A stretch of 64,000 nt of DNA, from assembly GCA_036785375.1 (NCBI GenBank), contig JAWMAR010000065.1, forward strand, positions 6,820,001 to 6,884,000, read 5' to 3'. Position numbers: made by a program. How positions within the stretch are numbered: the stretch's first letter is position 1; each line of letters opens with the position of its first letter. Below, in pieces: positions 39,001 to 42,000 of this stretch. This stretch comes from Leucoraja ocellata (lineage: Eukaryota).

Positions 39001-42000
39001 GTCAATTTAATTGTCATTTGGACCCCTGGAGGTCCAAACGAAATGCCGTTTCTGCAGCCATACATTACACACAAATAGACCCCAGACACAACATAATTTA
39101 CATTTTACATAAACTTATCTCTTGTCTATGCATCCACAAACATAGGTGTGCACATATTTTTCTGGCATGGAGGGGATGTAGATAAGACTCTTTTTCCTCC
39201 TCTAAGTCATATAATTTCATACCATGCTGTCAATGACTGCAATGTTTCTAAAATATATTATAATATTCAAAAGTGACATTTCCCTGCTTCCTGAGAGTAT
39301 TTTCGAAACCAAAATTAGAATTTAAGGCCAAGAAAATTGTGAAAGTAGAATCAACCTGCCTCCAGCATTGACTGGAGATTATCTGTTACTAAACAGAAAA
39401 AAAATGTTGGCGATCTATTCCTCCATTATTCCTGCAATCCAATTCAAAACCTACCTGAGGATCATGAACCATCAAAGCACAAGAAGAAAATTACCAATTA
39501 AATCAATAATTAAAAGGTGGCACAGACTGAATTAAACCCAGTTAATGATTCTCCTCCAAAATACAAGCATCATAAACAAGTGCAATTAAGGATAAATTGA
39601 AGAATGCTTTGACAATCCTTGCATACAAAGCACACTTTAATCATTTCATACAGTTATAATATCTACTGTTGGCAGAATCAGTGCTTAGACAGCAGCTATC
39701 CAGCAATGATAGAGGGAATGTAGGAAAAAACAAAATTCAATGCATGAGGGATTCTCTATCTGAAAGAAAAGAAATCTGTGCTTCGGATGCTTCATGGTAA
39801 CGTAGTCCCAAAAAACACGACCATTGATACAGAAGCATTTTTTTTGCATTTACAACTACTTTCACTGCGGCTGTGAAAATCATTGTGGCCATTAACAATG
39901 ATGCTGCTTGCTCTTTCTGGGCTCCAGGGTTTGGCAGTGCAAGAAATTGTCAATCATTTACACGTTTTTACAGCAGAAACTTGGTTTATTGCTAATGAAG
40001 TCTCCGGTTTAAAGCAACATCTGCACTTCCTTCCTACACACCTCTTCATATTTGCTAAATCATAGCAGCAGTTACTAACGGTCTAATTTAATCGTTTTTT
40101 TCCCCTCAACATTAGCACTGACAGACACAGATAATAATTAATTAATTAAAGACCATCTCCGTTTTTCTCCACCGGGGACAGAGTCGGCGGCTTGACTGGT
40201 GACGGAGATTGAACCAGCATTCCCGGTGATGAAATAGGAGACTGTGGCTCAGGCAGAGGAGGCATCGCCATTGGCAGAGCCGCTGCAGAAGTGGGTTGTT
40301 GTGCTGGTACAGGCGGATTGATGCCCCTGGACATGGACGGAAGTAAACTTGTACGGTCTGGATAATACGAAGGTGGAACCAGGTCATTCACAGGCAGGAT
40401 ATGTTGCCTGTAGGTGCCGCCATCAGCACTGACCAGATATGAGCGCGGCTCAGAGGCCGTTCCAGAAATTAGACCGATACAGTCATGGCCTTTGTCAGTT
40501 TGCAAACAAACCACCTGCCCCTTGGTTAATGGTGGCAGCGGCCTGCTTGTTTTGTCATACCACATGCCATTCAAATATGTCAGTTGCCACTGTAGACCAC
40601 GAGAGGGCAGGAGTCGGATGTGAGAAGTGGTTGCTTTTGTTGATGAGGTGCCAAGCTGTGACACACTGCACAGGATGCCACATCCAGCTGATGTATTCAG
40701 CCATACCAGGCCAGTAAAACATGTTTTATGCTCGTAGGATGGTGGCTTCAGCACCTGGGTGCCCTGCATGGACAGCATTAAAATACTTGCTGAGCAGCGA
40801 AGCAGGGACCACAGCTTTATGGCCTTTTACGATAATGCCATCCTGCAGTACTAGCTCATAGCGGACGGCAAAGAAAGGCCGAACTGGCAGCAGTAGATTG
40901 TAATGTTTGTTTGCCCAGCGACACTTAAATGACGGCGGCAAGCAACCACAAGGTACTGTCAGCAGCAGCGTGGGTAACCAGGTCCTCCACACAGGACGAG
41001 GGAATAAAGGACACAGTCATTACAATAAAGTCATCATCCGGTGAGGACGGACCCTAACAGGTCTTTCGGGGTGCACGCGAGACAGTCAGCCAGGTGCATG
41101 TCCTTACCCCATTCTGCTTTCCAATTGGAGGCGTGGGTTCGAATCCCACTTCTGACACTATGTTGAGCTCTGCTGTTGGAATAACTTAGTGATTGAGATC
41201 CAAACACTTTATTAGCATTACAGCAGAGGTAACTTCATGTTAACACATAACTCCAGACTGAGGAAGAAAGGGAAGAGAAGCTTTCTGTTAACTAGTGGGC
41301 GGAGCCGCAAAGTATAACTCATAACATGAGTGATAGTGATCTACAGAGATTTTATTGCTGGAACTCCAGTTCATGGAAATATCCCAAATCCTGTTTGGTA
41401 AAAGAGAACAAGAGTATATCCAAATCTCACATGTGTTTTGTTTAGTTTAGTCTGGTTTAGTTTAGACATACAGCGTAAAAACAGGCCCTTTGGCGCATCA
41501 AGTCTGTGCGGGAGAACGACCACTTGTACACTAGTTCTATCCTACATGCTAGGAACAATTTTACTGAAACCAATTAACCTACAAACCTGCACGTCTTTAG
41601 AATGTGGGGGCACCCAAAGTAAACCCATGCAGTCACAGGAAGAACGAACAAACTCTGTACAGATGTTAAATGGTCAAGAATGCACTTGGTCTCCGGCACT
41701 GTAAAGCAGCAGCACTACTGCTGTGCCATTGTGTCACCCTAAACCTACTTCAATGAAATTTCCTTGAGAATTGTGGTTGGTGAAAATATTGTACGCTCAT
41801 AAAACATAGAAGCAGAATTAAGCCATATGGCCCATCAAGTTTGCTCCGCCATTCGATAACGGTTGATCTAATTTTCCCTCTCAACCCAATTCTCCTGCCT
41901 TCTCCCCGTAAACTTTTGAAGCTCTTACTAATCAAGAATCTATCGATCCCCACTTTAAAAAAATTCAATGACTTGGCCTCCGCAGCTGTCTGCGGCAATG

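What the first reader, a model, noticed from the sequence alone, without database searches (positions are those of the whole stretch)
41085..41326. Gypsy element that copied the whole 3' half of its tRNA-Leu primer and then jumped into pol
Seen: next to the LTR, tRNA-Leu similarity runs ~49 nt (41112-41160) through the T arm and variable arm to the anticodon stem. It then joins directly to the RNase H end (GKDMHLAD), so gag, protease and RT are missing. Known: a PBS is normally at most 18 nt because m1A58 blocks plus-strand copying, and the tRNA-Leu-CAA 3' exon starts just after modified G37. Inference: a fossil of RT read-through past m1A58, a stop near position 37 and an aberrant strand transfer. 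Alternatively, this is a family with a genuinely extended PBS.
Basis: partly seen in the sequence, partly recalled or inferred. Interest (0 to 1): 0.65.

Follow-up and report, generated by a model that had tools for sequence, protein, structure and literature searches.

The report
Gypsy remnant with over-copied tRNA primer
A decayed gypsy-type jumping gene keeps a 49-base copy of its tRNA-Leu primer instead of the usual 18, joined almost directly to the tail of its polymerase gene; this matches a copying accident already described for HIV, so it is a neat fossil, not a new mechanism.

Summary
On the + strand, 41112-41160 matches published tRNA-Leu(CAA) at 43 of 49 positions without gaps. That is 17 of 18 in the canonical primer-binding site and 26 of 31 beyond A58, and the match starts exactly at tRNA nucleotide 38. 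Three unassigned bases follow. From 41108 down to about 40164 the minus strand encodes only the last residues of RNase H plus a broken integrase of a Ty3/gypsy-type pol. The first ~864 residues of a full-length relative (the N-terminal part including protease, RT and most of RNase H) are absent from the window.

This layout (terminal repeat, full PBS, extra tRNA copy, deletion junction) is the one published in 2025 for 44 defective HIV-1 proviruses, called deferred second-strand transfer. I read this copy as a germ-line fossil of the same accident.

Three things stay unproven:
- **LTR:** the 166-nt "LTR" has no second copy or target-site duplication in the window.
- **tRNA genes:** the species' own tRNA genes could not be examined.
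- **Other copies:** no other copy of the family could be examined, so a family-wide long PBS is not excluded.

The stop at nucleotide 38 may be meaningful or chance.

The parts
41161..41326 (-). The inner end at 41161 is firm; the outer end is not verified.
   Evidence: Read on the minus strand it starts TG and ends CA, with a short imperfect terminal inverted repeat. It carries a GC box and an AATAAA signal about 45 nt before its end, and it abuts the tRNA-complementary stretch with no spacer. No second copy exists in the window: blastn finds only the self hit, and the other 8 rows are at most 18 nt with E of 1.2 or more. 41327-41434 is also unique in the window, and the next dispersed repeat starts at 41435, so the LTR could be longer.
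41143..41160 (-). Canonical 18-nt primer-binding site, complementary to tRNA-Leu(CAA) nucleotides 59-76 including CCA.
   Evidence: 17 of 18 identical to the published tRNA-Leu-CAA 3' end (by eye). The one mismatch is in the CCA.
41112..41142 (-). Extra tRNA-derived stretch of 31 nt, covering tRNA nucleotides 38-58: the 3' strand of the anticodon stem, the long variable arm and the 5' half of the T arm.
   Evidence: 26 of 31 identical without gaps, P about 1e-11. The + strand folds into a T hairpin (5 bp, 7-nt loop) with an adjacent variable-arm hairpin. The T arm matches Rfam T-arm positions with E = 0.0011. No other copy in the window.
41109..41111 (.). Three bases assigned to neither the tRNA nor pol (filler at the junction).
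   Evidence: 0 of 3 match tRNA positions 35-37. The codon they form does not match the residue at that place in P0002 or P0054.
40146..41108 (-). Broken pol remnant: the last residues of RNase H (GKDMHLAD...), the linker and the integrase. It is collinear with residues 865-1358 of a 1359-aa Ty3/gypsy-type relative.
   Evidence: tblastn chains give outer bounds 40164-41108 against P0054 and 40603-41108 against P0002. The closest relatives are 63-79% identical over a 96-aa stretch. Breaks, counts only: about 5 frame changes and 3 in-frame stops by reading (at least 3 and 2 along the P0054 chain), and one internal deletion of about 164 residues in the integrase core. Pfam finds nothing in any of the 5 separate fragments.
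40095..40107 (-). Purine run of 13 nt just downstream of the pol remnant. It looks like a polypurine tract but is not followed by an LTR.
   Evidence: Read directly. No similarity to 41161-41326 follows it. A piece of an unrelated dispersed repeat occupies 40001-40041. Inferred only.

Best explanation
This is a dead, single-event by-product of reverse transcription of a Ty3/gypsy-type LTR retrotransposon primed by tRNA-Leu(CAA).

While plus-strand strong-stop DNA was being made, the reverse transcriptase did not stop one base before m1A58 of the primer still attached to the minus strand. It went on copying the tRNA through the T arm and variable arm to nucleotide 38. The over-long 3' tail could no longer pair with the copied PBS, so the second strand transfer went astray. 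The tail was joined, with three extra bases, to minus-strand DNA at the very end of the RNase H coding region. The finished DNA therefore read LTR, PBS, 31 extra tRNA bases, RNase H tail, integrase, and lacked everything from the N-terminus of the polyprotein through most of RNase H (the first ~864 residues of P0054, including protease and RT). It was integrated in the germ line and has since decayed.

Shown: the sequence layout, the tRNA identity, the pol junction, and the absence of those 5' coding regions from the window.
Inferred: the order of events, that the LTR is an LTR, that this copy is a one-off, and that a 3' LTR once existed and was lost.
For: 1. The tRNA sense strand lies on the strand opposite to pol and directly against the CA end of the LTR-like stretch, with a CCA-like end. 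This is the normal PBS geometry and shows derivation from a mature tRNA, not a gene.
2. Identity continues 31 nt beyond A58 at 26 of 31, P about 1e-11.
3. The end of the tRNA copy and the start of pol similarity are only 3 nt apart (41112 and 41108). One event explains both; two independent events would have to coincide.
4. Pol downstream is collinear and on the same strand, from residue 865 of 1359 to the C-terminus.
5. The same layout is documented in 44 defective HIV-1 proviruses, with tRNA inserts of 7-54 nt that define the deletion junction, and is explained there as deferred second-strand transfer (PMC12657518, passages). The 31 nt here fall inside that range.
6. m1A58 is the experimentally supported stop. 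Without a stop the product becomes non-complementary to the other strand (PMC8599865, passages).
7. tRNA-Leu is a known primer of some animal Gypsy families (PMC10886601, passages).
8. The stretch is not a dispersed tRNA-derived repeat: no other copy in 64 kb, while true SINE-like repeats nearby recur at about 9 other places.
Against: - No second LTR, no target-site duplication and no verified outer LTR boundary. The purine run downstream of pol is not followed by an LTR.
- No other copy of the family could be read, so a one-off is assumed, not shown.
- The comparison used the GtRNAdb tRNA-Leu-CAA-2-1 sequence printed in the table (its species is not stated in the passage read) and Drosophila Leu-CAA genes, not the host's own. 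Five of 31 extension positions differ, three of them in the variable loop, and I cannot say whether that is host difference or decay.
- The precedent is a retrovirus in somatic cells, not a gypsy element in a germ line.
- The junction-peptide search found no candidate. The scan of bacterial and archaeal genomes found nothing (600 pattern matches, 0 confirmed). Both are uninformative on copy number.
- The pol match at the junction itself is only 5 of 8 residues and was missed by plain BLASTP.
Confidence: 0.55

Rival explanations
1. The same accident, but the copy ended at nucleotide 38 because the template ended there. The primer would have been a 3' half of tRNA-Leu(CAA), either the 3' exon left by intron removal or an anticodon-loop cleavage product. 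The plus strand ran off its 5' end, a few untemplated bases were added, and the end was joined to the minus strand.
For: The similarity starts exactly at the first base of the 3' exon as marked in the Drosophila Leu-CAA genes and is absent upstream, at 1 of 8 positions. Three unassigned bases sit at the junction (41109-41111), as expected for untemplated addition at a template end. HIV-1 RT can hold ends together with 2-nt overlaps (PMC3035444, listing and start of the abstract only).
Against: It still needs passage of m1A58. HIV inserts end at many positions, 7 to 54 nt, so one junction at nucleotide 38 can be chance, roughly 1 in 50. A stop at modified G37 of a whole tRNA predicts the same end point. 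That tRNA-Leu carries m1G37 is recalled, not from a call.
Confidence: 0.15
2. The family genuinely has a PBS about 49 nt long (a contiguous complement to the 3' half of tRNA-Leu), or the deleted form is itself a multicopy non-autonomous family. This copy would then simply show the family state, perhaps with an unrelated later genomic deletion.
For: Nothing in the window excludes it, and no other copy could be examined. Additional contacts between element RNA and the T or D arms of the primer exist in Ty1, Ty3 and retroviruses (recalled; in PMC8599865, HIV complementarity is said to extend to position 55). Fungal elements use non-canonical tRNA regions as primers (PMC10886601).
Against: An independent deletion would have to start within 3 nt of the end of the tRNA complement. 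A contiguous complement of this length did not turn up in my searches (only the top 12-15 of 47, 260, 19, 64 and 186 papers were listed, and supplements were closed). No junction-like peptide was found in the protein collection (weak evidence, since such frames are rarely predicted as genes).
Confidence: 0.12
3. Chance or secondary juxtaposition. A separate retro-fragment (tRNA primer plus strong-stop cDNA, or a tRNA-derived repeat) landed inside or beside an older, already truncated gypsy remnant.
For: The LTR is unverified. The element lacks a 3' LTR and target-site duplication. The region is a patchwork of repeats.
Against: The orientation and zero-spacer geometry are exactly those of a 5' LTR with its PBS in front of same-strand pol. 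No pol continuation exists on the far side within 22 kb. There is no poly(A) or simple-repeat tail and no other copy of the stretch.
Confidence: 0.1
4. Assembly chimera: the junction was created by mis-joining reads in a repeat-rich region.
For: The window contains three runs of N totalling 463 nt and many repeats.
Against: 40042-41434 is unique within the window, and the N runs lie far from it. The junction has the precise geometry of a known biological product.
Confidence: 0.03

Closest known systems
Defective HIV-1 proviruses with a tRNA(Lys-3) insert at the deletion junction (deferred second-strand transfer; PMC12657518, passages read)
   Same: An intact-looking 5' LTR end, a full PBS, a contiguous further copy of the primer tRNA, then a deletion junction to a downstream, same-strand part of the genome. 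The insert length here (31 nt) lies within the reported 7-54 nt.
   Different: Here the element is a Ty3/gypsy-type retrotransposon, the primer is tRNA-Leu(CAA), and the product is fixed and decayed in a germ-line genome. The 3' LTR is missing, and only one copy is known.
Ty3/gypsy (Metaviridae) LTR retrotransposons primed by tRNA-Leu, for example Gypsy-28_NVi as named in PMC10886601
   Same: Full-length relatives of the pol remnant carry RVT_1, RT_RNaseH_2, RT_RNaseH and Integrase_H2C2 (4 of 4) and rve (3 of 4). The best solved-structure match is Ty3 Gag-Pol, 7q5b, at 6e-74. [quoted passage not shown]
   Different: The tRNA complementarity is 49 nt, not about 18. The first ~864 residues of the polyprotein (including protease, RT and most of RNase H) are absent. 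The integrase is broken. No second LTR.
Elements with non-canonical tRNA priming: copia, Ty5 and the fungal Copia/Helenus group use internal or anticodon-region tRNA pieces; Ty1 and Ty3 make extra contacts with T and D arms (partly from PMC10886601; the rest recalled)
   Same: More of the tRNA than its last 18 nt is involved.
   Different: Those are family-wide, functional, and either use other tRNA regions or are discontinuous. Here the stretch is a contiguous extension of a normal 3'-end PBS and ends at a deletion junction.
Helenus TRIMs (tRNA-like sequence inside the LTR; PMC10886601, abstract and passages)
   Same: An LTR element carrying tRNA-derived sequence. Vertebrate members use tRNA-Leu, tRNA-His or tRNA-Lys primers.
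   Different: In Helenus the tRNA-like part lies within the LTR, is near full length, and is not complementary to the PBS. Here it lies outside the LTR and continues the PBS.

Membership tests
Ty3/gypsy (Metaviridae) LTR retrotransposon | Pol of the Ty3 type with the order protease, RT, RNase H, integrase | tested here: inconclusive
   The window holds only the RNase H tail and a broken integrase, and Pfam finds nothing in 5 of 5 fragments. Full-length relatives reached from it have RVT_1, RT_RNaseH_2, RT_RNaseH and Integrase_H2C2 in 4 of 4, rve in 3 of 4 and an aspartyl protease in 1 of 4. They match Ty3 Gag-Pol 7q5b at 6e-74.
Ty3/gypsy (Metaviridae) LTR retrotransposon | Two long terminal repeats flanked by a short target-site duplication | tested here: not met
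   Only one LTR-like stretch is present, with no second copy in the 64 kb and no duplication to be found. This is expected for a truncated remnant, but the LTR is therefore unproven.
Ty3/gypsy (Metaviridae) LTR retrotransposon | PBS complementary to a tRNA 3' end directly after the 5' LTR | tested here: met
   41143-41160 matches the tRNA-Leu(CAA) 3' end at 17 of 18, directly after the CA end at 41161.
Ty3/gypsy (Metaviridae) LTR retrotransposon | Polypurine tract directly before the 3' LTR | tested here: inconclusive
   There is a 13-nt purine run at 40095-40107, but no LTR follows it.
Product of deferred second-strand transfer (tRNA read-through) | Contiguous copy of the primer tRNA beyond nucleotide 58, in PBS orientation | tested here: met
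   26 of 31 identical over tRNA nucleotides 38-58, P about 1e-11.
Product of deferred second-strand transfer (tRNA read-through) | The tRNA insert itself defines the junction to a downstream, same-strand part of the element | tested here: met
   The tRNA part ends at 41112 and pol starts at 41108, collinear to the C-terminus.
Product of deferred second-strand transfer (tRNA read-through) | Parent family has a normal PBS and intact 5' region, so the insert is private to the defective copy | not testable with these tools
   No eukaryotic genome collection was open. Protein relatives come without DNA. The junction-peptide search found no candidate.
tRNA gene, tRNA pseudogene or tRNA-derived SINE | Full cloverleaf with a 5' half (A box), or a dispersed multicopy family with a tail | tested here: not met
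   ARAGORN finds 0 genes. Rfam tRNA scores 16.4 bits against a cut-off of 29. There is no similarity upstream of nucleotide 38 (1 of 8). No other copy lies in the window. No A-rich or repeat tail.

The most novel reading that the evidence does not exclude
A lineage of vertebrate gypsy-type elements that really replicates with a contiguous complement of about 49 nt to the 3' half of tRNA-Leu(CAA). It might be primed by the free 3' exon or 3' half of this intron-containing tRNA. This locus would then be one non-autonomous member of the lineage, not an accident.
Probability: 0.12. Interest if true: 0.7.

Novelty: new member of a known kind. Interest (0 to 1): 0.35.

Why it matters
If the reading is right, this locus is a germ-line fossil of a reverse-transcription error (read-through of the m1A58 stop in the primer tRNA, followed by a misplaced plus-strand transfer). 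That error has so far been documented in HIV-1 proviruses from patients. The fossil would show that the same failure occurs in Ty3/gypsy elements and can be integrated and inherited.

A census of such fossils would give a descriptive read-out of where reverse transcriptases stop on modified tRNAs in vivo, for example whether ends cluster at m1G37 or at the 3'-exon start. It would also flag a source of short tRNA-like pieces that annotation pipelines may mistake for tRNA pseudogenes or SINE heads. As a single decayed copy, its weight is modest.

Tried and rejected
- **tRNA gene in the window:** ARAGORN found none. Rfam gave only sub-threshold matches.
- **Second LTR:** blastn with word size 7 found only the self hit. 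A self-comparison of 38,000-43,500 shows other repeat families only at 40041 and below and at 41435 and above.
- **Pfam on the remnant:** 0 of 5 single-frame fragments matched.
- **Insertion into a continuous pol:** rejected, because no RT, protease or gag of this kind lies on either side within the window. The RT ORF at 35497-36264 and three others give only RVT_1 in Pfam, with no RNase H or integrase domain, and the gypsy-type queries did not hit them apart from one weak hit of P0134 at 17852-18184; I take them for LINE-like.
- **Is the deleted form multicopy?** A search with the 66-aa junction frame found no candidate. The scan of genome contigs gave 600 pattern matches and 0 confirmed; that collection holds only bacteria and archaea, so this says little.
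- **Names for relatives:** none in 6 clusters, apart from one "hypothetical protein".
- **Large direct repeats 31029-31432 and 47759-48161:** considered as possible LTRs around the region. Rejected, because the same sequence recurs at other places as a dispersed repeat.
- **Not done:** a tool alignment with the published tRNA sequences. Letters from a paper are not among those that may be typed, so the comparison was made by eye. I made no further literature search with neighbouring window strings, for the same kind of reason.
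Full report
**What is there**

The window is a repeat-rich eukaryotic stretch. At least four ORFs give RVT_1 as their only polymerase-type Pfam domain (4 of 6 large ORFs), which I take for LINE-like elements, and several dispersed short repeats are present.

The finding lies on the minus strand. Read in that sense, 41326 down to 41161 is an LTR-like stretch. It starts TG and ends CA, has short imperfect terminal inverted repeats, a GC box, and an AATAAA signal about 45 nt before its end. 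Directly after its CA end comes the complement of a tRNA 3' end.

**The tRNA part**

ARAGORN finds no tRNA gene in the 64 kb. Rfam gives only sub-threshold matches: tRNA at 16.4 bits against a cut-off of 29, and a T-arm match at 41132-41149 with E = 0.0011.

A literature search with a 22-nt string from the window found 2 papers. Their passages print tRNA-Leu(CAA) sequences:
- GtRNAdb tRNA-Leu-CAA-2-1 in PMC10359600
- four intron-containing Drosophila Leu-CAA genes in PMC4536317

Letters from a paper are not among those I may type into a tool, so I compared them by eye, without gaps. The results for 41112-41160:

| Segment | Coordinates | Identical |
|---|---|---|
| Whole stretch | 41112-41160 | 43 of 49 |
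| Canonical PBS (tRNA 59-76; A58 = 41142) | 41143-41160 | 17 of 18 |
| Extension beyond A58 | 41112-41142 | 26 of 31 |
| Eight bases upstream | 41104-41111 | 1 of 8 |

Chance gives 26 or more of 31 with P about 1e-11.

The five mismatches in the extension fall as follows:
- Three are in the variable loop. The variable arm also differs between the two published sequences.
- One is in the variable stem, where it keeps a G-U pair.
- One is in the anticodon stem.

The similarity therefore begins at tRNA nucleotide 38. In the Drosophila genes that is the first base after the intron.

Among the four Leu isoacceptors printed, only CAA fits all 7 bases of the acceptor strand. On the anticodon-stem strand CAA fits 5 of 6 and CAG, the only other one I compared there, fits 1 of 6.

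The + strand folds into a T hairpin next to a variable-arm hairpin. The energy alone is not significant (z = -1.59). The stretch has no other copy in the window. A SINE-like repeat 300 nt away recurs at about nine other places.

**The pol part**

A 96-aa stop-free stretch of the minus strand found 3 proteins at 63-79% identity among 315 candidates. In the representative library it found 225 proteins at E of 1e-3 or less, 11 of them at 1e-10 or less.

Evidence that the family is Ty3/gypsy-type:
- The four full-length relatives tested carry RVT_1, RT_RNaseH_2, RT_RNaseH and Integrase_H2C2 (4 of 4) and rve (3 of 4).
- One of them, P0054, matches Ty3 Gag-Pol (7q5b) at 6e-74.
- P0054 also matches the Ty3 RT/RNase H chain 4ol8 over its residues 446-877.

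Permissive tblastn chains place the first pol-like residue at 41108 in two relatives: P0002 residue 25 and P0054 residue 865 of 1359. They run collinearly to P0054 residue 1358 at 40164. P0002 residues 15-190 align to P0054 residues 855-1032. The Pfam RNase H domain of P0054 ends at 856. The window therefore keeps only the last dozen residues of RNase H, the linker and the integrase.

Plain BLASTP of the 41-aa junction frame against P0002 found nothing. The local match is GKDMHLAD against 8 residues of each relative, 5 of 8 identical, read by eye and supported by its collinearity.

All 15 pol queries hit only 40383-41086 on the minus strand. The one exception is a weak hit at 17852-18184 on the other strand, where one of the LINE-like RT ORFs lies. 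So gag, protease, RT and most of RNase H are absent from the window.

The remnant is broken. I count about five frame changes and three in-frame stops by reading against the relatives. Along the P0054 chain the counts are at least three and two. There is also one internal deletion of about 164 residues in the integrase core.

**The junction**

The tRNA part ends at 41112 and pol starts at 41108. The three bases between them match neither.

**What is not there**

- There is no second copy of the LTR-like stretch in the window and no target-site duplication.
- A 13-nt purine run at 40095-40107 follows the integrase remnant, but no LTR follows the run.
- A piece of another dispersed repeat sits at 40001-40041.
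- The outer LTR boundary is unverified. 41327-41434 is also unique, and the next repeat begins at 41435.

**How it most likely arose**

The only template that carries the complement of tRNA nucleotides 38-58 next to U5 is plus-strand strong-stop DNA that overran the normal stop in the primer. The alternative is that the family's own RNA carries that stretch.

PMC8599865 (passages) supports m1A58 as that stop. It states that without a stop the product becomes non-complementary after the plus-strand transfer.

PMC12657518 (passages) describes exactly this outcome in HIV-1. One sequence from that study plus 43 from GenBank, all defective, have a tRNA(Lys-3) insert of 7-54 nt after the PBS, and the insert defines the deletion junction. 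The authors call it deferred second-strand transfer.

The locus here has the same layout with a 31-nt insert. The tRNA copy ends within 3 nt of the start of the retained pol. This argues for one event and against a long PBS plus an unrelated deletion. I put this reading at 0.55.

**Why the copy ends at nucleotide 38**

This is open. It fits three possibilities:
- a stop at modified G37 (that tRNA-Leu carries m1G37 is recalled, not from a call)
- run-off on a 3' exon or 3' half
- chance, since the HIV inserts end at many positions

**Rivals**

- A family-wide long PBS, or a multicopy deleted family (0.12), could not be tested. The junction-peptide search found no candidate. The bacterial and archaeal scan gave 600 pattern matches and none confirmed.
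- A secondary juxtaposition (0.10) is disfavoured by the exact 5' LTR and PBS geometry on the strand of pol.
- An assembly chimera (0.03) is disfavoured by the same geometry and by the uniqueness of 40042-41434 within the window.

**Comparison with what is known**

- tRNA-Leu priming of animal Gypsy families is known (PMC10886601, passages).
- Helenus elements carry tRNA-like sequence inside the LTR, which is a different arrangement.
- Discontinuous extra contacts with the primer in Ty1 and Ty3, and priming by internal tRNA pieces in copia-type elements, are recalled or partly seen.
- I found no report of a germ-line gypsy copy with an over-copied primer in searches. Only the top 12-15 of 47, 260, 19, 64 and 186 papers were listed.
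- Supplements were closed. Figure S2 of PMC10886601 (PBS alignments) and the supplementary data of PMC12657518 could bear on this.
- PMC13537249 was seen as abstract and outline only and was not used.

**Verdict**

It is of modest interest as a single decayed copy and of more interest if a census shows a pattern.

Noticed in passing
window 41435-41718: A SINE-like dispersed repeat directly beside the putative LTR. Partial copies at 67-87% identity lie at about nine other places in the window (also family D7).
   Followed up: partly
window 41797-42047; also 31029-31432 and 47759-48161: Another dispersed repeat with at least eight partial copies. I took the ORF on its minus strand for the tail of a LINE-like element, by recall only. 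The two 400-nt direct repeats 16.7 kb apart (93% and 90% identical) belong to this family and are not LTRs around the region.
   Followed up: partly
window 1975-3216 (+), 17870-18631 (+), 35497-36264 (-), 61597-62316 (+): Four ORFs with an RVT_1 reverse-transcriptase domain and no RNase H or integrase domain in Pfam, which I take for LINE-like elements. The one at 17870 also carries ALKBH8_N (PF09004) (4 of 6 ORFs scanned). None is the missing RT of the gypsy remnant.
   Followed up: partly
window 36712-36918: A short tandem array with a 32-nt period (also seen as a 64-nt period), five to six units at 70-75% identity (families D3 and D8).
   Followed up: no
window 40146-41108 (-): Besides the 5' deletion, the integrase of the remnant lacks about 164 residues of its catalytic core. 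This is a second large internal deletion of unknown origin. It may also be a template switch.
   Followed up: partly
window 40001-40041: A 40-nt piece of a dispersed repeat with three other copies in the window (84-88% identical). It marks the leftmost possible limit of the gypsy remnant.
   Followed up: no
window, three places far from the finding: Three runs of N totalling 463 nt. I left them as they are and did not examine them.
   Followed up: no
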